Source of the DNA: Octopus vulgaris
Lineage: Eukaryota
Assembly (NCBI GenBank): GCA_951406725.2
Contig: OX597819.1
Span: 81,096,001 to 81,160,000, forward strand
Length of the DNA stretch: 64,000 bases
Reading direction: 5' to 3'
The notes under the pieces are model-generated. The model did no database searches and was not told where the DNA came from. It saw only the letters and a program-made list of their open reading frames with translations. This document shows, piece after piece, positions 16,413 to 42,587 of the stretch. Positions within the stretch are counted from its first letter, which is position 1; the number at the start of each line of letters is the position of its first letter. Made by a program: the position numbers and the translations under genes.

Positions 16413-16722
16413 AATGCATTAAAAATGGAAAAAAAATGATGGTAAATTTTTTTTTAAATCGTTGACTCATCGTAGACATTTTTAGAGAGGTACTTCCCTT
16501 ATATAATAGCGAAAAAAATGCATTAAAATGGAAAAAAATGATGGTAAATTATTTTTTAAATCGTAGACTCATCGTAGACGCGCGCTAATACCCAGAAGGG
16601 CTCGATATGAATCACGACTATAAGATACCCGGTTTTGGTTAAACTGCACCGCAAAATGTGGGAGTAGTTAGGAATCTAAATCGTAGGAGACAGACACACA
16701 ACTTGACTTTTATATATAAAGA
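16413..16722 (-). mobile_element. Non-autonomous Helitron, 5' part with internal tandem repeat
   Basis: The 5' end TCTTTATATATAAAAG and about 70 bp match the complete copy at 30824-30978. Confidence 0.75.
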
Positions 16723-27974: not shown

Positions 27975-28172
27975 TTTGCATCGTGAAGCTTTTTATACAC
28001 ATACAGACACATACGTACATATATATACATGCACCCATGTATAAGCATACATACCTATTTGTATATTTCTGTATGTGCGTATAAATGGATGATGTATTTA
28101 TGCATATATGTGTATGTTTGTATATATGTGTTTAAACAGTATATCTATACATATACGTATGTAAATATGTGT

Positions 28173-28218
<46 letters not shown>

Positions 28219-29227
28219 GTGCGTGTGTGTATGTGCGCATGTGTGTGACTTTGAGTGTATGTATGTATTACGTATACACGTCCTAACTGCCCACCTCTCT
28301 GTACCAGTTTCAGTTTTAGCCATAAATTGAGTGTTTTAAGTTATGAGCTAATGTACGTAAAAACCGAAACCTTGACCGCCTATCTTAAATATATAAAATG
28401 ATGTATACAAAAACATGTAACGTGTATGAGCGCATGTGTACATCGGTTTGTGCTTGTGTGTACATATATAGATATTCGTATGTGTGTGTGTGAGTGTGTG
28501 TGTTGGCAAGGGATAAAAGTATTGTGCAAGAGGAATATGCCAATTTTGGTGCATTGGGAATTCTTGTCACGTTTGAAATTTGTATTATGCATGTAAATGG
28601 GAGCTGTACTGGGCGGATTGAAGATAATTTACTCGCTTCTTCTATCAGTCGTTACTGCCGTTGGTGGCTGCCACTCGCTACATAATGGATATACTTCCAG
28701 GCAGTTCCAGCCACTTGTTAATAGCAATTAACACACTCAGCAGCCAATTTCTAATACCAGTAATCCAACTGGCCTGTGTTTGCTGACAGCTCAAGGGTAA
28801 TCACAAGTGTGTCATATTCCATATTTTTATCATTCACTTTCACTGAGTTTTCGGTTCTTTTTTGGAATAACTTAAGAATATTCCCATTGTTTAGCTTTAT
28901 CAAATCTAATACAACTACTGCCTCTTTCGAAAAATGATAGAATATTGTTCTTCGATTAATCTTGAGTTACTAATTAAATGTAATACAAGCTATACTCTAA
29001 CCACTTTTTTTTGATATATGCTTTGTAGACCATAGTTATAAATTTGCGTTTTGAAAGAAACGGCTATTTTTCTTTCCCAGAACATTCTAGTGAATTTTCC
29101 TATGTAGCTTTTTCTTTTCCGTGTTTATTTTCTTTTCTTTTCATTCATTTTTTGTGGGGGTTTTTCCCCTTTTTTTTATATTTTTAAGGCTTCTTATTTT
29201 GAATAAAGCATTTTTATTATCACTATT

Positions 29228-29375
29228 TGTAGTAGTAGTAGTAGTAGTAGTAGAAGTAGTAGTAGTAGTAGTGGTAGTAGTCGCAGCAGCAGTATCATCA
29301 TCATCATCATCATCATCCTCAGTTGTAGTAGTAGCAGCAGCAGTAGCAGTTGTATCGTCATCCTTATCATCAGCT

Positions 29376-29418
<43 letters not shown>

Positions 29419-29520
29419 CAGCAGTACTAGTAGCAGTAGTAGCAGCAGCAGCGGTAGTAGTATCATCATCATCACCATCAGCATTATCAGCTGTAGTAGT
29501 AGTAGTAGCAGTTGTAGTTT
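29228..29520. repeat. Compound (GTA)n/(TCA)n/(GCA)n microsatellite
   Basis: Direct reading. Confidence 0.95.
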
Positions 29521-29968
29521 TTGTGGTCTTTGTTATTTAGCACCACGACAGCCCTAATAGAGCTTTCACTTCGAACTTTATGTATTCAGAACTGCCTTTA
29601 GACTGCTCTTCACCAGCTTTCATTCGGCGAAGGACTTACATTTTATATTCAAACGTTTTAACTCAACGTAATTTCCTCTTATCAGATATGACATATTTTT
29701 CTGTACTTTAATTATTAAACAATATTTTTAAAGTGGCGAGCTGGCAGAATCGTTAGCACTTCGGACAATATGCCTAACAGCATTTCTTCCGATTTTACAT
29801 TCTCAGTTCAAATAACGCCGCGATCGACATTACCTACATTCCTTTCGAAGTCGATGAAATAAGTATCAATTGAGCAGTGGGAGCGATGTAATTGAATAGC
29901 CCCACCTACCCACCCCACGTGCTCTACAAAGTGGTCAAGCCTATAGTAAAAAGAATTATTGAACAATA

Positions 29969-30002
<34 letters not shown>

Positions 30003-30095
30003 GTATTCAAATTAGGGACTCATAGAGTAACTGCTGCATTTGTTGAGTATATAAACAGTTTGGTTACTTTTTCCCTGGAGATTGTCAGAATGATG

Positions 30096-30149
30096 TGAAT
30101 ACCTCTGATGAGAACCCAGTAAGGTTCGAAAATCTATTAAGGTTGTTCA
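30096..30149 (+). ncRNA. Minimal type I hammerhead ribozyme
   Basis: UGAAU-ACCU-CUGAUGA-GAACC-CAGUAA-GGUUC-GAAA-AUCUAU-UA-AGGU-U-GUUCA. Lies in an about 210-bp insert between microsatellites. Helix III is weak. Confidence 0.75.
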
Positions 30150-30234
30150 TTTTTTTTTCTGTCGGTGGAGAAATGGCTAAAATTTGCCCTGTCTATAAAT
30201 ATACCATATGTTACACACACACACACACACACAC

Positions 30235-30266
<32 letters not shown>

Positions 30267-30399
30267 ATATATATATTTCCATTTCCTGAGCGCCTATTAA
30301 TAATAATACTGTAATTGTTCCATTGTTGCTGTTTTTTTGTTTTCCCGTTTGGATTAAAATTATATATATATATATGGATATACATATGTATATACGTAT

Positions 30400-31690
30400 A
30401 TAAATTATAAATATTATCGCAATACTTGTTATTTTCCAGCACCGTGAAGGTAAAATTATAAATAGAAAATAGTGGTACAAGTAGGCACCAATGTTTGCTG
30501 GAAATAGCAGTCGATAACATTACGACGCTGAGTAAAGCTTCACTGAATGTATATTGGCGAAGATTGTGCGGGCAGCAAATATAAAAAATTTCGTTTTACA
30601 TCTAATAAGAACACCAGATAGATGGACAAGCTAGAGTGGATAATCTAGCGCTCGAGTTTCGAACTTTCCTAATATGCCTGTTATCGTAAATTCGGTTAGT
30701 CCTCATCTGCTAGGTTCACCAGAGACGAAATTTTAAAATAGTCGTTACACCAGTGCCAATATATTCGATTGAACGCCTAGCCGTAAACAGAACCGAGATT
30801 AGTGAAAAAGTTTTATATAAAAACTAGCAGTATCGCCCGGCGTTGCTCGGGTTTGTAAAGGAAATAACTATGTAAGCATTTTTAGAGAGTTATAGCCAAA
30901 AAAATAGCAAAATGTGGGAGTAGTTAGGAATCTAAATCGTAGGAGACAGACACACAACTTCACTTTTATATATAAAGATTATAAATATTATTGTAATACA
31001 ATAGTATTATTTTCCAGCTAAATAAAGCACTGTAAAGGTAGAATTATAAATAGATAATAGTGTTACAACAAGGCACCAATGAGTCGATAACAGTACGACA
31101 CTATGTAAAGCTTTACTGACAAAAATGTGTGCGGCAACGAGTATAAAAAATTCTCGTCTTACCTCTAGTAAGAAAATCAGAAAAATGGACAACCTAGAGT
31201 GGATAATCTAGTACTCGAGTTTAGGACTTTCCTAATGCATCTGTTATCATAAGTTTGGTTAGTCCTCATCAGCTAGATTCACCGGAAATGAAATTTAGCT
31301 AAAAATAATACTATTGTATTGCAATAATATTTATAATTTCTATATAATATTTTTTCACTGATCTCGGTTCTGTTTACGGCTTGGCGTTCAGCCGAATATA
31401 CTGGTATTGATGTAACGAATATTCTAAAATTTCGTCTCCGGTGAATCTAGCTGATGTACTAACCGAATTTACAGGCGTATTAGGAAAGTCCGAAACTCGA
31501 GTATTAGAGTATCCACTCTAGGTTATCCATCTATCTGGTATTCCTACTGGAGGTAAGGCGAACATTTTTTATATTCGTTACCTGCACACATCTTTGTCAG
31601 TATACATTCAGTGAAGCTTTACTCAGCGTCGTACGGTTACCGACTGCTATTTCTAACAAACACTGATGCCTTATTCTACCACTATTTTAT
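30400..31690. mobile_element. Array of an about 410-bp hammerhead-containing unit: about 1.7 tandem copies (-) plus one inverted copy (+)
   Basis: Units at 30400-30823, 30979-31296 and (inverted) 31297-31690. Hammerheads at 30642-30716(-), 31205-31279(-) and 31444-31510(+). Confidence 0.85.
30824..30978 (-). mobile_element. Complete 155-bp non-autonomous Helitron
   Basis: Minus strand A|TCTTTATATATAAAAG...CCCGAGC-AAC-GCCGGG-CGATACTG-CTAG|T, with no TSD. Removing it restores the host repeat as seen in the inverted copy. Confidence 0.9.
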
Positions 31691-31693
31691 ACA

Positions 31694-31727
<34 letters not shown>

Positions 31728-31751
31728 CATATACATATATTTATATATATA

Positions 31752-31822
<71 letters not shown>

Positions 31823-31826
<4 letters not shown>

Positions 31827-32436
31827 ATAATAACAAAGGGTAAAATTACTTAATTAACTAGTAATCAATAAATAATTTCACCAAAGTAGAATTCGGCATG
31901 AAAAAGGACCATTTCTCTGTAAACCTAAGTAATATTTTATAATTAGGGTTCAGCAAAGATTTGCTTTACCACATACCGAAGTTTAGAAATAGCAGCCAAA
32001 GAGCCTTAGCTATTTCCTCTACTTTAAAAAGAGACTCCCGGACAAAAACAAAGTACTTGAAAACAACCCACGTAGGCAGAGAGGAAAAATAACGAAACTC
32101 AATCGGTATTTGATTACCTATGGACGCGTTTCGGAATTAGATCAGTATAAAGAATGTAGAATTTATACTTTACCCAAACATTTTCCTCTTCAGCATGGGA
32201 CTTCACAATATTAAATCCGAAAGCACTGGAAGAATTGAATATACCTCCCCAACTAACAGTATCAGACAGATCATATTCAACGTCCAGTACCGCCGAATTC
32301 AAAACATACTTGCCCATCCACGTGTGTTGTCAAGTAAAAATACGACAGAAAAAATCTGTAGTTTATTATCAGGGAGAAAATTATATTATCAATAATAACA
32401 AAGGGTAAAATTACTTAATTAACTAGTAATCAATAA
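31823..32436 (-). mobile_element. 565-bp hammerhead monomer plus about 49-bp terminal direct repeat, abutting (TA)n
   Basis: ATCAATAATAACAAAGGGTAAAATTACTTAATTAACTAGTAATCAATAA occurs at 31823-31871 and 32388-32436. Confidence 0.85.
32117..32199 (-). ncRNA. Type I hammerhead ribozyme with extended helix II
   Basis: CCCAUG-CUGAAGA-GGAA...(AGUAUAAA/UUUAUACU inner stem)...UUCC-GAAA-CGCG-UC-CAUAGG. Helix III is palindromic (ACGCGU) and the triplet is GUC. Confidence 0.85.
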
Positions 32437-32556
32437 TTGCTGCATAAAAAATCTCTTGGCTGGAGGAAAGGTTCGTGATCCACTTATATACATACACTTA
32501 TTTCGGTTAGTGACTTATTTGCGAATATACCAACACTAGCGCCGCTGAGGGTAATA

Positions 32557-32830
32557 TTCTCTGGGAATGCACATAAGCCCTTTTCAGAGTTATTTACTTT
32601 GAATTGTTATTAACTCATACCTGATTAGCCTGTTATTACGTAACATGCTTCACGATTTTAGTATGCCTACCTTATTAGTATTCCCTCATAAGTTCTATAT
32701 ACTCTGGGAACGCTTTAAAGCCCTTTTCTGGGCTACTTTATTTGAATTCTTACTGTCGGGTAACTAATTTCATGTTATTACATAACTGACTTCACAATTT
32801 GGATATTCATAACTTGCTGTGAATTCTTAA
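32557..32830. repeat. Diverged tandem duplication of about 144 bp
   Basis: CTCTGGGAA...AAGCCCTTTTC...TTTGAATT recurs at about 32559 and 32702. Confidence 0.6.
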
Positions 32831-33002
32831 AAACAAGATCCTGTGTAAGACAGTTTGGCATTCCCTGTAAATGCAGAGAAACCGTTTTAAGGGTCACATA
32901 CTTTGTATTGTTGTTATTGGATTAGCGAAACAATTATGAGAACGGAATCAAGGGATAGGACCCGATTTCCCGGAAAATTACTAATATACATGCATACATA
33001 CA

Positions 33003-33034
<32 letters not shown>

Positions 33035-33045
33035 CATACATACAT

Positions 33046-33125
<80 letters not shown>

Positions 33126-33332
33126 ATAAGATCGTTATTTAAATACCGATCTTATCAGGTGGCCAGCATGTGTATAAACCTTCAAAGGTAATGATTATTA
33201 TTAAAATAACACCCGCTAGTTTATTTTGTCTTCTCTTCTGGTACTGGATGAACATTTAATGTCGTTTTAGAGTCAAGTTTTGGCTGCTATTTCCAGCGTG
33301 GTAGTATCTCTTAGATACATTAATTATATACT

Positions 33333-33366
<34 letters not shown>

Positions 33367-33378
33367 GGTGTGTGTGTG

Positions 33379-33409
<31 letters not shown>

Positions 33410-33532
33410 AGAAATATCAATACATATTTATTGAACTATATGTAAGAAAATCTATCTATGGTAAACTCCAATGTTAATACAGTGTGTATACACACATACA
33501 CACACATACATATTTACGTATACACATACCCA

Positions 33533-33563
<31 letters not shown>

Positions 33564-34926
33564 CTGTCTGTCTGTCTGTCTGTTTGTGTCCGCTTGTGTG
33601 CTTGAGTAGCTATAAATTATAAATGTGCATGTACTAAACGAATTTATATATTGAAAATCGTTATATTAGCAACACGAAAGCTAAGATAAGTTCTGCAACT
33701 AACTAAAAGTTTTGAATTTATTGATACAATTGTTAAAACTCAAGTGAATTAGGTGAAACTGTCTTGCTGTATGTATGAAAGACTGAATCCACTGCTGTCG
33801 TAGGTAGGAATTTATCCCACCTTGTCGCTCTATATTTCTTTAGTTCTTCTTCCCAATGTATTTCTCTGTCACCGACATGATTTATTTAACTAGTGTTCTT
33901 CGCTAGCAGACTGCTATGGAGCTTCTTACTTTTCTTTTACTGAGTTCATTCTCTCAATAAGTTTTCGTTGATAAAAGTGTCCACAAGTTAATTAAACGAA
34001 CTGTTTAAGCGACACATCACATCGTAGTGTCCGAAAATTCAATCATAACTATTTACTGAAGACTTGTCGAAAACGGCAGAAGCCATGTTAAAGCCAGCAC
34101 GCATTTATTATCTTCGCAGCACGTTATTGAGTAGAGCACAAGAACATTTGTACATTGCAATTCTTCTTGGAGTTGAATGTCACGAATGTTTACGGCTGCT
34201 AATATATTTGTAAAATGGATGAATATTGTTTAGAAAATTGTTGTTGCTGCTTATATAAACATTTCTGGCCTTTTTGTCATCGATATGACTTTTCTTTTTC
34301 TTATAACAGATAAATGCAATAAGTATATGTTTTGTTTCCTTTTTTTTCCCTTTTGATTTTTGCTTTCGAAAACCTATTTTTGCTACACCAACAAGAGAAA
34401 GCACAGATATACAAGATTCACTAGACTTGTAATGGTTTTTATTGTTTATTGGCATATGTTAAAAAGTGCTACAACTATGATCACTCCGTCCCATCCAAGA
34501 ATACAATGTAGCATGTATCCATTCTCACACATTTTTTTAAGACAGTTAAAATATAATTTCAGGGAGATTTAACACTTATTTTCACATGTAGCACTTTCGT
34601 TTTCTTGTTTGATAGTAGTTTTAAACTCATGAACACAAAATTTAAAATGTCAGAAAATATAGATGAAGTGAATTTTTTCTTCTTTTTCTTTACATGAGAC
34701 TTACATTAGCTGACACTTTCTTAATGTTAACAGATCAACTGCTATTGATCTGAGATTACATGACAACACCAAATTTTACTTCGAACCAAAGAAGGAAGGC
34801 AACTGCATGAGTGTGAGATGTAGGATATAGCAGCAAAATTTCCCACAAATCACATCCTAGCGGTTTAAATTAGGATACAGTGCATTTCAAAATGTAGTGC
34901 CACATATGCTAACAAGCCAAGTAATA

Positions 34927-34968
<42 letters not shown>

Positions 34969-34999
34969 CATATATATAAGAGTAAAGTTATCGTCTCGA

Positions 35000-35185
35000 G
35001 TCATACCAACTCATAAGGGCCTGTTACCTGGGAGTATAAATTTCACAACTGGACGGGAAGCCAGCTGAGTGCACTGGAGCAAGGTGAAAAAGAAGTATTT
35101 TCCTCAAGAACACAACGCGCCGCCCGGTCCAGGAATTGAAACCACATTCTTACGATCAGGAGTCCGACACCTTAACCACTAAGCT
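35000..35185 (-). mobile_element. SINE family C
   Basis: CTCAAGAACACAACGCGCCGCCCGGTCCAGGAATTGAAACC...AACCACTAAGC. Confidence 0.75.
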
Positions 35186-35893: not shown

Positions 35894-37180
35894 TTGGGTT
35901 GGCAACTAAGTTCCCGCCGTTTTTTAAAATTAAAATATTTTAAAAGGTTTAATAAAAGATAACAACTAATTAATCAAGAATGTATTCACCCTTGTTGTTT
36001 ACAACTTCTTCCCAGCATTCAACAAGATTTTCAATACCTCGTTGGTAGAAATCACCCGAATTCGACTCGAAAAATTGACCCAAGTTCTCAATTCTGCATC
36101 AGTATTGAACGAAACTCCGCGCATAGCATTTGAAAGAGATCGAAAGAGGTGGAAATCCGTTGGGGCCAAATCAGGAGAGTACGGCGGGTGTGGCAGCGCT
36201 CCCCAGCCATGCGTTTGAATGGCTTTCTTGGTCTTATTGGCGATATGAGGGCAGGCGTTGTCGTGCAGCAGAACTCCATGCTGCCGATTAGATCTTTTCT
36301 CTTGAATAGCCGTGTTGAGTCGTTCCATTGGTCGAACACAGAATTCTGCGTTGACCGCTCGGTTCCGTTCAAGCAATTCGTAGTGGATAATCCCTCCCCA
36401 GCCCCACCATATGCACAGCATCGTTTTACGCGGATGATCTTGTTTCACACGCGGTGTCGCTTGTTTACCGGGTGTAAACCATTCCTTACGCTGCTTCATA
36501 TTAGTGTACAGGCACCATTTTTCGTCGCCAGTGACGATTCGGTAAAGAAATCGTTGCTTGTGTCCGTGAGTTTAGCGGTGATGAGTAAGCAAACCAGAGG
36601 AGATTGTGGAGATTGTGGCCCGTTTATTTTTGTTGTTGTCATTTAAAGCATGCGGAACTCATGCCCCATACTTCTGAACCTTTCCCATCGAGTGAAGATG
36701 CTTCTCTATAGCAGTGTGGGAGAATTCCATTTTCTCTGCCAGTTCCCTTGTCGTTTGACGGGAATTTTCGTGCAAAAGTTGGTTTAATCACTCTTCATCG
36801 AACTCAACTGGATGGCCAGAACGAGGTGCATCTTTGAGTTCAAAATGTCCATTTTTGAACTTGTTATACTAATCACGCGCGATTCTTTCAGCTATGACAC
36901 CTTCACTATACGCAGCACAAATGTCGCGAGCAGCTTTTGCGGCCTTAGAACCTTGATTAAAAGCAAAAAGAAGGAAGTATCGAAAATGCTCGTTTTTCTT
37001 AACTTGACATTCCATTTTAATGATCTGAAAATAAACAAAAATTAAATTAACTAGGAAAAAAAAAAAAGATTCCAAAATGATTCAAAAATAGAATTCTCGA
37101 AAAAATAGATTCCAAAATTTAAAAACGCAATAAATTCCAAAATTTTTTTTTAAATGGTAGTAACTTAATTGCCAACCCAA
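35894..37180 (-). mobile_element. Full-length mariner transposon (1287 bp), mellifera-subfamily-like TIR
   Basis: TIRs TTGGGTTGGCAACTAAG / CTTAATTGCCAACCCAA, with TA on both sides (35892-35893, 37181-37182). Confidence 0.92.
35970..37015 (-). pseudogene. Mariner DD34D transposase with stops and frameshifts
   Basis: MECQVKKNEHFRYFLLFAFNQGSKA..., VPHAL, IVTGDEKW, LHDNACPH, HPPYSPDLAPTDFHLF, ending GEYILD*. Confidence 0.92.
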
Positions 37181-38953: not shown

Positions 38954-39604
38954 GGGTTTATCATAGCAGCTCAAGATCAATGCCTACCAACAAGAAACTA
39001 CCAGGCCAACATATTAAAGAACGGCAGTAGCCCAACATGTCGTGTATGCCGACAACAAAATGAAACCATTGACCATGTTGTCTCCAAATGCAGTCTTCTA
39101 GCGCCTACGGAGTACCTCAGTAGGCATGATAGAGCTGCACAATATATTCACTGGGTAATTTGCAAAAACCTGGATTTGCCCCATGAAAAAAACTGGTGGG
39201 AACACAATCCACCTCCTGTGCTTGAAAATGACCACATCTCACTCTTCTGGAACTTCACCATTCAAACTGACAGGAAGATAGATGCAAATAGGCCAGACAT
39301 TATATTGAAGGACTTCAGACAAAGAACATGCCTCCTCATTGATATGACTGTCCCAATCGATATAAACGTATCTGTCAAGACCTACCAAAAATTGAGCAAA
39401 TATAAAGATCTTGAAATAGAAATCAGCAAAATGTGGAAGCTGAAGACTAAAACAATACCTGTTGTCATAGGTGCCCTGGGAATGATAGCGAAAGGGACTG
39501 ATTGCTATCTAACTCAGATACCAGGAAACCCCAAAATGGCAGAAATTCAAAAGATAGTGCTCATGGGAACTGCTCATATCCTACGCAAAATACTCTCTAT
39601 GTAA
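38954..39604 (+). CDS. C-terminal CCHC knuckle plus restriction-like endonuclease of an R4/Dong LINE (partial)
   Basis: GFIIAAQDQCLPTRNY, CRVC...ETIDHVVSKC, YLSRHD, NRPDIIL...LIDMTVP, KLSKYKDL, PVVIGALG. The frame is uninterrupted. Confidence 0.88.
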   Translation, partial: GFIIAAQDQCLPTRNYQANILKNGSSPTCRVCRQQNETIDHVVSKCSLLAPTEYLSRHDRAAQYIHWVICKNLDLPHEKNWWEHNPPPVLENDHISLFWNFTIQTDRKIDANRPDIILKDFRQRTCLLIDMTVPIDINVSVKTYQKLSKYKDLEIEISKMWKLKTKTIPVVIGALGMIAKGTDCYLTQIPGNPKMAEIQKIVLMGTAHILRKILSM

Positions 39605-40183: not shown

Positions 40184-42587
40184 GAAATCTACGGATGCAC
40201 AAACGCACAAAACGGAGAAAATGAAACAAATATGGATGACTTGTTCCGAAACACTCACGAGTGGTGAACAGTTCTCAAAAACTACTCAGAGTGCTACTAT
40301 CTAAGGCTTCTATTACACCATGTCAAGAGACCCATATCATTTACAGCCTTACGTACGGTTGATAACACAGTATGCTGAACATATCGCCAGGCTTGCCGTC
40401 ACAGAGGCCTTCTGGAAGATGATGCATACTGGGATGCCACTCTGACAGAGGCACAAATGTGCAAGTCTCCTATGCAGATCTTCTCCATCATGCTGGTGAA
40501 CTGTGGATTGTCAAGTCCAAATCAACTTTGGTACAAAACAAGGAGGGACTTTCTGAAGACATTTTTCAAAGAATCCAGTATCAGTGTGACGATGATGTCA
40601 CGTTCTAATTTTCAACGAGGCATTAATATTAATAGGTTCAATCACTGGGCAAAAACAAACTCGAAATCTATGATCTTCCAGTTCCTGTCAGAGATGTTCA
40701 ACACAGATTAGCACAAGAGCTAATCAGGGAACCATCATATAACATGGAAAGTTTGCAAGCAGTTGTCAATGAAAAGGAACCAATTCTGGTACAGGATCAA
40801 AAGGAGCTATACTGGCAAGTTCTTACATCTGTGGACAATAACACTGGTGGGGGGCCTTCTTCCTAGAGGCTCCTGGAGACACAGGAAATACATTATTGAT
40901 CAACCTGCTCTTTGCTAAGGTAAGACAGAAGAAGAAGATTGCTTTGGCTGTTGCATCTTCTGGAATTGCAGCCACACTCCTAACAGGTAGAAGAACAGCC
41001 AATTCAACATTCAAACTGCCTCTGAACCTCATCCAAAATTAATCTCCTTTATGCAACATATCCAAGAATACAGCATTAACAAAGCTCCTTATATATGCCA
41101 AACTCGTTGCCTGGGATGAGGCAACAATGTTCCATAAGGTAGCCTTTGAAGCACCTGATGCAACACTACAAGACTTCAGAAAAAATAAGATCATGGGTGG
41201 TGTTGCTCTCCTTATGGCTGGTGACTTCAGGCAAAAGCTGCCTCTCATTCCCAGAGGAACAAAGGCTGATGAACTGAGAACTTGTATCAAGTCATCATAT
41301 ATCTGGCAACATGTCAAGCAGCTTACTCTGACAACCAACATGAGGGTTTACATTCATGGTCACCCGTTAGGCGCACAGTTCTCCAACAACTTACTTGACA
41401 TTGGAAATGGAAAACTTCCACAAGATCCAGAAGATAGTCTGCACCACCTCCCATGTGGCAATATGGCTGCCTCCTTTGAAGACCTGAAGAGCAAGGTGTT
41501 TTCAAACATTGCCACAAACTATAAAAATCACAAGTGGCTATGTGAAAGAACAATTCTGGCACCAAGGAATGATGCTGTAGACAAGCTGAATCTAAATTTG
41601 CTATCTCAGCTTCCAGGACCTGAATATTCATATAGATCAATGGACTCTGTCTCTGATCAAGAACAAGCAACGCATTACCCAGTGGAGTTCCTCAATTCAC
41701 TTCACCCACAAGGATTTTCCCCACACATTCTGATCATGAAAACAGGCGCGCCTATAATGCTATTAAGAAACCTTGATGTATCAAGGTTCTGCAATGGAAC
41801 AAGGTTGGTTGTTAAAACAGCCATACCCCATGTGCTGGAAGCAACAATAATTACAGGCAACATGATGGGTGAGAATATATTCATTCCAAGGATACCTCTC
41901 ATCTCAAATGATCTCCCCTTTCAGTTCAAGAGACTACAGTTTCCTGTCAAACTGAGCTTTGCAATGTCTACCAACAAAGCACTAGGTCAATCTCTAAAGG
42001 TGGTGGGACTTAACCTCCTTCAACCTTGCTTCTCACATGGTCAGCTGTATGTTGGATGTTCTAGAGTTGGAGATGAAAAGAACCTCTACATTCTCAGTGA
42101 TAAACATGGCAAGACAGAAAACACAGTATATGAAGAAGCATTTACATGAATAGTAGGTCCATGTCATATACAAAAGTGTAAAACCATTGAGTGTTAAAGT
42201 ATTACTATTACACTTTCACTTTTCGACTGACATGCGTGAACGTATATCTGTGTGTATAAAAGTGAAAAAATTACATGATATATTCGCTGTGTGTATGTGT
42301 GTGTGGGTGTGTGTATTCTACGCGCAACCTTTCATTGTTTATAATCTGTACTTGTTTTTTGGTTACGAAATAAGTTAGACAAACGTGTTTTTACTTTATA
42401 TACATATATGAGTTGAAAACTTTCTTTCCACCTTTCACTTAACGTCTATGTTCCAGGCTAGCATGGGTTGCAGAGTTATGTAGAAAGTTGGTATCTCAAC
42501 TACTAGCAGTTGAGACCTACATAATCTAGACGGTGTTCTTAAATATCATTATTTTTTAAACCCAGGCAACGCCGGGTATTTCTGCTA

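What the first reader, a model, noticed from the sequence alone, without database searches (positions are those of the whole stretch)
30400..31690. Tandem about 410-nt monomers whose consensus is a perfect hammerhead
Seen: each of three copies has different lesions (CAGAUGA and a changed triplet; UAAA for GAAA; a small deletion after CUGAUG). The majority consensus is AAUCUAG-CUGAUGA-GGACU-(about 32 nt)-AGUCC-GAAA-CUCGAG-UA-CUAGAUU. The first two ribozymes are 563 bp apart, or 408 bp without the Helitron. Established: non-LTR retrozymes are tandem non-coding monomers of a few hundred nt, each with one type I hammerhead, that yield circular RNAs. Inference: this is a fossil array of that kind, with an added inversion.
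Basis: partly seen in the sequence, partly recalled or inferred. Interest (0 to 1): 0.75.

Follow-up and report, generated by a model that had tools for sequence, protein, structure and literature searches.

The report
Fossil retrozyme with Penelope insertion scars
This is one decayed insertion of an old, widely scattered non-coding jumping repeat whose 435-base unit carries a predicted self-cutting RNA; its two fixed ends and back-to-back arms match those of Penelope-type jumping genes in the same genome, which likely pasted it in, so it is a new member of a known kind.

Summary
In detail: three hammerhead-bearing copies (two on -, one on +), each with the lesions described, the first two 563 bp apart and split by a 155-bp Helitron-type insert. 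Corrections: the unit is 435 nt, not 410 (copy 2 has deletions), and the locus is neither a satellite-like array nor a later inversion. It is one Penelope-style insertion: a 1.8-unit arm back-to-back with a 0.9-unit arm, between TA tracts. Across 135 loci, 142 of 186 arms end at two fixed points about 190 and 265 nt past the cut site. Back-to-back pairs combine one long and one short end in 26 of 30 cases. A young autonomous Neptune-type element in this genome shows the same pattern. Seven subfamilies show compensatory changes in helices I and II and keep loop 3 self-complementary, so the ribozyme was likely selected, although insertion ends ignore the cut site. All sampled copies are old (median 9% from consensus); no long array or autonomous parent was found; RNA, cleavage and circles are untested. 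The scan's unchecked notes report the same footprint for younger hammerhead repeats in this genome. New member of a known kind.

The parts
30397..31691 (.). Whole insertion: minus-strand arm of about 1.8 units back-to-back with a plus-strand arm of about 0.9 unit
30397..30823 (-). Copy 1, distal part of the minus arm; ends at the long 3' end (unit position about 265-268, counted from the cut site); 8.5% from subfamily A consensus
30642..30716 (-). Hammerhead 1 (core starts 30709; cut site between 30649 and 30648); U4A and GCG triplet, predicted dead
30824..30978 (-). 155-bp non-autonomous Helitron-type insert: 5' TC, 3' CTAG with a subterminal hairpin, between A and T, no target duplication; 72 nt recur at 16651-16722 (98.6%)
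   Evidence: the Helitron end rules are recalled knowledge
30979..31296 (-). Copy 2, 5'-truncated start of the minus arm (from unit position about 351); two internal deletions of about 11 and 15 nt; 7.9% from consensus
31205..31279 (-). Hammerhead 2 (core starts 31272; cut site between 31212 and 31211); G12U, predicted dead
31293..31296 (.). Back-to-back junction of the two 5'-truncated arms, 4-nt overlap
31293..31691 (+). Copy 3, the plus arm: unit positions about 216-435 then 1-188; ends at the short 3' end; 8.9% from consensus
31444..31510 (+). Hammerhead 3 (core starts 31451; cut site after 31503); 2-nt deletion in the core, predicted dead
31688..31822 (.). (TACA)n(TA)n tract at the right end, the inferred target
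30361..30396 (.). TA-rich tract at the left end, the inferred target

Best explanation
The locus is one old, decayed insertion of a dispersed non-coding 435-nt repeat with a type I hammerhead motif, likely written into a TA microsatellite by the reverse transcriptase-endonuclease of a Penelope-like element (most likely a Neptune type). Shown: unit length, dispersal, two fixed 3' ends, scattered 5' ends, back-to-back arms, TA flanks, common subfamily of arms within a locus, and compensatory changes in the ribozyme helices. Inferred: the endonuclease cut both strands of the target; each cut end primed reverse transcription at one of two internal AT-rich points (about 190 and 265 nt past the ribozyme cut site); each cDNA ran upstream through the cut site on a circular or uncut multimeric RNA and stopped after a few hundred bases; the two cDNAs were joined at a short overlap. 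The ribozyme likely cut multimeric transcripts to unit length, working as a dimer through its self-complementary loop 3, and did not set the insertion ends. A Helitron-type element later split the longer arm, and point lesions accumulated in each copy separately.
For: 3' ends: 71 of 93 arms at 60 loci fall in two windows covering 11.7% of the unit (windows set on these data), and 71 of 93 arms at 75 further loci do too (5 of these loci are duplicates of one insertion). 48 of 51 two-stranded loci are back-to-back; of 30 with both ends in the windows 26 are long+short, 4 short+short, 0 long+long (p 9e-6). 134 of 161 such ends run into a microsatellite against 21 of 51 other ends. 42 of 48 junctions have an overlap of 1-12 nt or a gap of 0-10 nt. 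Only 3 of 186 3' ends and 2 of 186 5' ends lie within 10 nt of the cut site. Control: 26 of 29 young Neptune-type copies end about 138 or 170 nt past their own hammerhead, before (TA)n, and 2 of 2 inverted pairs combine both ends. 91 of 94 same-locus pairs share a subfamily, and same-locus copies share three times more derived bases (0.018 against 0.006 per site). Ribozyme: 90.1% of cells paired, covariation score 0.251 against 0.181 in shuffles (0 of 500) and at most 0.111 when slid (56 of 138 copies). The geometry is that described for PLEs (PMC8557442, passages; PMC11167929).
Against: No autonomous element with this unit as its terminal repeat was found: no similarity to the Neptune unit or, beyond AT-rich chance matches, to 30 GIY-YIG loci, and no shared coding sequence upstream of arms. 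The tail is about 75 nt, not the 30-40 nt described for PLEs. The base pair that opens helix II is A-C in subfamilies C, E and G (unpaired in 26 of 56) and F tends to U4C. The number of covarying pairs alone is not above shuffles (301 of 500), and the changes are few events shared by descent. Core conservation alone is weak evidence (1 of 11 core positions variable against 145 of 435 columns; part of the core was in the search patterns). Loci were found through the ribozyme region, which biases arm lengths and 5' ends.
Confidence: 0.82

Rival explanations
1. Fossil tandem array of a retrozyme, inverted later by a separate DNA rearrangement.
For: Precise head-to-tail junctions exist (26 segments); 13 of 186 arms cross the cut site twice.
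Against: Back-to-back arms recur at 48 of 135 loci with paired long and short ends; no arm reaches three units; the 39 exact core matches are all far apart.
Confidence: 0.05
2. The copies are only terminal-repeat remnants of an extinct autonomous Penelope-like element and never moved as an independent small RNA.
For: Same geometry as PLEs; heavy 5' truncation leaves mostly terminal repeats; one subfamily-D fragment is fused to a truncated Neptune-type copy (L047).
Against: The unit closes on itself: sequence after the tail runs straight back to the ribozyme with no coding segment in 26 junction-spanning segments and in the arms that cross the cut site twice; no shared upstream coding flank at 60 loci.
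Confidence: 0.08
3. MITE or foldback DNA transposon with long inverted ends.
For: Inverted arms flank about a third of the loci.
Against: 84 of 135 loci have one strand only; the two outer ends differ by about 75 nt; inner junctions vary; units are circularly permuted and the ribozyme covaries.
Confidence: 0.02
4. Same element, but mobilised by a LINE through twin priming, with the ribozyme along for the ride.
For: Back-to-back 5'-truncated arms with short overlaps resemble twin priming (recalled knowledge).
Against: Two alternative fixed 3' ends, no poly(A) or repeat tail of its own, read-through beyond one unit and TA targeting match the Neptune-type control.
Confidence: 0.03

Closest known systems
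Metazoan non-LTR retrozymes (Cervera and de la Pena 2020, PMC7229834; passages seen)
   Same: Non-coding unit of a few hundred nt with one type I hammerhead, low GC (35-37%), predicted highly self-paired (z -2.7 to -7.0 for seven consensus circles), head-to-tail junctions; PLEs present in the same genome and proposed there as mobilisers.
   Different: Unit 421-435 nt, at the top of the 150-450 bp range; at most about two units per arm; long extended helix II (32-nt insert); all sampled copies old; cleavage and circles not shown. The passages read do not describe fixed double 3' ends or back-to-back arms.
Li, Clavereau and Pollet 2026, bioRxiv 10.64898/2026.07.22.740005 (parts 1-3 of 5 read)
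   Same: Same conclusion: animal retrozymes are likely non-autonomous partners of PLEs.
   Different: Their evidence is co-occurrence and terminal-repeat homology, mostly in vertebrates; 'tail', 'inversion' and 'cephalopod' do not occur in the text. Here the evidence is insertion geometry and no homologous PLE was found. This locus fails their 'active' criterion (two consecutive complete ribozymes).
Penelope-like elements, Neptune clade (Craig et al. 2021, PMC8557442, passages; Frangieh et al. 2024, PMC11167929, parts 1-2 of 4)
   Same: 5' truncation, partial tandems, inverted 5'-truncated copy, tail on one end only, (TA)n preference, internal start of reverse transcription at two sites, cut site not used as an end. 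Non-autonomous PLE derivatives with tandem insertions are described there (Chlamys, MRC1).
   Different: No RT or GIY-YIG frame; tail about 75 nt against 30-40 nt; no sequence match to the PLE families sampled here.
Canonical metazoan type I hammerheads that work as dimers (Cervera and de la Pena 2014, PMC4209133, part 1 of 4 read)
   Same: Helix III of 1-2 bp capped by a palindromic loop; helix I of 6-7 bp.
   Different: Much longer loop/helix II; A-C at the base of helix II in three subfamilies; loop 1-loop 2 contacts not assessed.

Membership tests
Type I hammerhead ribozyme | Core CUGANGA, GAAA, UH triplet | tested here: met
   Met in all seven subfamily consensuses (F tends to U4C); changes otherwise at N7 (U/A/C) and H17 (A/C). 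Each of the three window copies has a lesion. 70 of 138 complete regions keep the core (inflated by pattern searches).
Type I hammerhead ribozyme | Helices I, II and short helix III | tested here: met
   compensatory U-A to C-G at two helix I pairs, G-C to A-U in helix II, further ones in extended helix II; first helix II pair often A-C.
Type I hammerhead ribozyme | Self-complementary loop 3 for dimer cleavage | tested here: met
   CUCGAG, CUCGGG and CCUAGG in different subfamilies are all self-complementary; 16 of 81 and 2 of 12 random changes of the same size would be.
Type I hammerhead ribozyme | Self-cleavage at the triplet; loop 1-loop 2 contacts | not testable with these tools
   Needs in vitro transcription.
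Non-LTR retrozyme | Unit of 150-450 bp with one type I hammerhead, low GC, non-coding | tested here: met
   421-435 nt, GC 0.35-0.37; no Pfam match in the one long frame overlapping the locus; no PLE protein match in the window.
Non-LTR retrozyme | Tandem organisation, dimers to long multimers | tested here: inconclusive
   Precise head-to-tail junctions and arms up to about 1.9 units; no trimer or longer among 157 loci.
Non-LTR retrozyme | Two consecutive complete ribozymes ('active', Li et al. 2026) | tested here: not met
   Not met at this locus; one locus of 131 (L208) has two consecutive motifs passing my relaxed criteria.
Non-LTR retrozyme | Unit-length circular RNA accumulates | not testable with these tools
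   No read-level RNA data were obtained.
Penelope-like element | Two alternative 3' ends (optional tail) | tested here: met
   tail about 75 nt, longer than the described 30-40 nt.
Penelope-like element | 5' truncation, partial tandems, adjacent inverted truncated copy | tested here: met
Penelope-like element | AT-rich or (TA)n targets | tested here: met
   134 of 161 fixed ends run into a microsatellite.
Penelope-like element | RT plus GIY-YIG reading frame | tested here: not met
   None in the unit; so not an autonomous PLE.
Penelope-like element | Homology to the terminal repeat of an autonomous PLE | tested here: inconclusive
   None to the families sampled; only the best 30+30 loci of thousands of candidates were fetched.
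MITE / foldback transposon | Identical terminal inverted repeats and fixed internal structure | tested here: not met
   Unequal outer ends, variable junctions, 84 of 135 loci single-stranded.
Helitron (insert 30824-30978) | 5' TC, 3' CTRR with subterminal hairpin, insertion between A and T without duplication (recalled) | tested here: met
   removing it restores the consensus junction.

The most novel reading that the evidence does not exclude
The family moved as a ribozyme-made 435-nt RNA circle that one Penelope-type enzyme pair copied from both cut DNA strands at two fixed internal start points. Because the ends ignore the cut site while the dimer-type ribozyme stayed under selection through seven subfamilies, making the unit-length circle would be the selected job of the ribozyme, which bears on the open question of what PLE-linked hammerheads are for.
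Probability: 0.4. Interest if true: 0.6.

Novelty: new member of a known kind. Interest (0 to 1): 0.4.

Why it matters
That PLEs mobilise animal retrozymes has been proposed from co-occurrence and homology. This family adds insertion-level support, with an autonomous control in the same genome, and its subfamily series shows that the ribozyme fold and a self-complementary loop 3 were likely kept by selection although cleavage does not define the ends (in a purified PLE, cleavage was not needed for insertion; PMC11167929). The locus itself is a dead copy with no sign of host function, and younger families noted elsewhere in this genome are better material for experiments.

Tried and rejected
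Rfam (E<=5, 28000-35000): no hammerhead match, only microsatellite-driven hits. Search for a parent: monomer against 30 GIY-YIG loci and 30 Neptune-type loci and the full 4271-bp Neptune unit gave only AT-rich chance matches or the L047 fragment itself; 5' flanks shared between loci were SINE-like inserts (SINE label recalled); 56 of 250 flank frames scanned in Pfam gave two GIY-YIG hits, one adjacent (L047) and one 700 nt away (L056). Search for young copies: best genomic matches 83% to copy 3, 85% to copy 1, 84-91% for the top 30 matches to a near-consensus copy (40 candidates scored of 644, 991 and 1783); none of 137 units under 3% from consensus. An apparent pile of 5' ends near unit position 300-330 (a start site behind a TATA-like word) was largely an alignment effect of subfamily differences and was dropped. 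A cap at two units as evidence against a circle was rejected: an exponential tail predicts 2.0 arms over 870 nt, 1 seen. Sequencing runs: no RNA holder listed; no reads were laid, so expression is open. Literature searches for a published account of this family found none; Repbase and Dfam were not available, and no supplements were seen (the cephalopod PLE list in file S1 of PMC8557442 and the tables of the 2026 preprint may bear on the parent and on novelty).

Full report
Observation. The three copies are there: copy 1 (30397-30823) and copy 2 (30979-31296) on the minus strand, copy 3 (31293-31691) on the plus strand. The 155-bp insert (30824-30978) has Helitron-type ends on the minus strand and sits between A and T; removing it restores the family junction (end rules recalled). 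Rfam has no hammerhead match here and the single copies fold poorly.

Family. The genome (G000, 2.8 Gb; its repeats resemble those of an octopus, recalled and not tested) holds many dispersed relatives. I fetched 157 distinct loci through DNA and pattern searches (counted). The consensus of 36 segments is a complete type I hammerhead, and 26 segments spanning the junction give a precise circularly permuted unit of 435 nt. Seven subfamilies (A-G, 421-435 nt) were resolved; the window copies belong to A. 137 units of 200 nt or more lie a median 9.0% from their consensus, minimum 3.4%, with CpG sites at 18.9% against 8.1%. From exact-pattern counts (39, 17 and 168 matches) and this divergence I estimate, roughly, several hundred to a thousand ribozyme-bearing copies. 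Only 40 candidates were scored per DNA search, so a rare young copy is not excluded.

Insertion geometry. Numbering from the cut site, 3' ends pile up at 181-200 and 245-275. In the first 60 loci 71 of 93 arms end there (windows set by eye), and in 75 further loci again 71 of 93 (five of these loci are duplicates of one insertion on C28). The windows cover 11.7% of the unit. 5' ends are scattered. 51 of 135 loci have both strands, 48 of them back-to-back; where both ends fall in the windows, 26 of 30 pair a long with a short end, 4 are short+short, none long+long. 42 of 48 junctions show a 1-12 nt overlap or a 0-10 nt gap (alignment overrun contributes to overlaps). 134 of 161 fixed ends run into a microsatellite, against 21 of 51 other ends and 54 of 102 5' ends of single-arm loci. 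The window locus is typical: long end 268, short end 188, 4-nt overlap, TA tracts on both sides. Arms of one locus share a subfamily in 91 of 94 pairs and share more derived bases than arms of different loci, so each locus likely stems from one event. 54 of 212 arms exceed one unit and one, a sum of pieces, exceeds two; an exponential tail explains this, so circle and uncut multimer cannot be told apart. Only 3 of 186 3' ends and 2 of 186 5' ends lie within 10 nt of the cut site.

Control and partner. The genome holds a young autonomous family with a 775-aa RT plus GIY-YIG frame, a CX4CX2C linker (Neptune type by the linker, recalled and in line with PMC8557442), a 4271-bp unit and its own hammerhead. 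15 of 29 copies end 134-142 nt and 11 of 29 end 168-170 nt past its cut site, before (TA)n; both inverted pairs in the sample combine the two ends. This is the PLE structure described by Craig et al. (PMC8557442, passages) and explained by two internal reverse-transcription starts by Frangieh et al. (PMC11167929). Our unit has no sequence similarity to this family or to the other GIY-YIG loci sampled, and its tail is about 75 nt, so the actual mobiliser is not identified. One subfamily-D fragment ends 4 nt past the cut site directly on an old 5'-truncated Neptune-type copy (L047), which may be a template switch; it is a single case.

Ribozyme. Between subfamilies, helix I changes U-A to C-G at two positions (C and D; G), helix II changes G-C to A-U (F), the extended helix II covaries, N7 is U, A or C, the triplet is GUA or GUC, and loop 3 with its closing pair is CUCGAG, CUCGGG or CCUAGG, all self-complementary. 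For G the search pattern fixed only the 3' strand, and 11 of 13 alignable copies carry the matching C on the 5' strand. On 56 of 138 complete regions (the 8 best-scoring per subfamily), 90.1% of cells pair and the covariation score exceeds all 500 shuffles and all slid controls, but the number of covarying pairs does not (301 of 500), and the changes are few events shared by descent. Against: A-C opens helix II in C, E and G; F tends to U4C; core invariance alone is weak. Consensus circles fold better than shuffles (z -2.7 to -7.0, 30 shuffles each). A short helix III with a palindromic loop is the described dimer-cleaving form (PMC4209133). Cleavage itself is untested.

Mechanism. Shown: dispersal, unit, ends, targets, covariation, decay. 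Inferred: a PLE protein cut both strands of a TA tract, primed at the two internal points, copied upstream through the cut site on a circular or multimeric RNA, and the truncated cDNAs were joined back-to-back; the ribozyme processed multimers to unit length. The idea that one circle is copied from both strands was sharpened by earlier notes of this scan; searches are compatible with it but do not single it out.

Comparison and novelty. It works like a non-autonomous PLE and fits the non-LTR retrozyme description (PMC7229834) in unit, ribozyme and composition; long arrays are not seen and circles are untested. The PLE link is proposed in that paper and argued in the 2026 preprint. Six literature searches found no account of this family or of tail-and-inversion evidence for retrozymes; repeat databases and supplements were not seen. 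The scan's notes hold no look-alike of this sequence but report the same footprint for young 360- and 485-490-nt families in this genome (unchecked). Verdict: real, a new member of a known kind, dead at this locus; interest 0.4.

Noticed in passing
window 31822-32436 (-): A second, unrelated hammerhead repeat shares the TA tract at the right end: 565-nt unit plus an exact 50-nt terminal repeat, core at 32193, GUC triplet, palindromic CGCG loop 3. Its family also has two 3' ends about 100 nt apart and back-to-back pairs, with matches up to 95%.
   Followed up: partly
window 30105-30139 (+): A third, small hammerhead-like motif between CA/TA tracts; the descriptor found 2 hits in the window and 0 in 30 shuffles.
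   Followed up: no
L145 (G000:C1:27839500-27849400), L115-L143: Young, near-identical Neptune-type PLE family: 454-aa first frame, 775-aa RT/GIY-YIG frame, 4271-bp tandems, hammerhead with a U4C core.
   Followed up: partly
L047:1412-2665: Subfamily-D fragment fused, 4 nt past its cut site and across a 14-nt palindrome, to an old 5'-truncated Neptune-type copy.
   Followed up: partly
L085-L110: Another PLE family (781-aa frame) whose 3' region has a hammerhead-like motif with UUGAUAA in place of CUGANGA, and also two 3' ends.
   Followed up: no
L084 and L089: Two further hammerhead-bearing repeats with long loop II seen by chance; the one in L089 is a back-to-back pair.
   Followed up: no
window 32554-32930: Three diverged copies of a 143-161-nt repeat.
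   Followed up: no
window 41043-42146 (+), 36002-36571 (-), 38954-39601 (+): PIF1-type helicase (Helitron-like), mariner-type transposase and zf-RVT fragments; no other Pfam match in 40 of 56 long frames scanned.
   Followed up: no
L201-L206 (G000:C28): One subfamily-E insertion present six times on one contig, apparently by segmental duplication.
   Followed up: no
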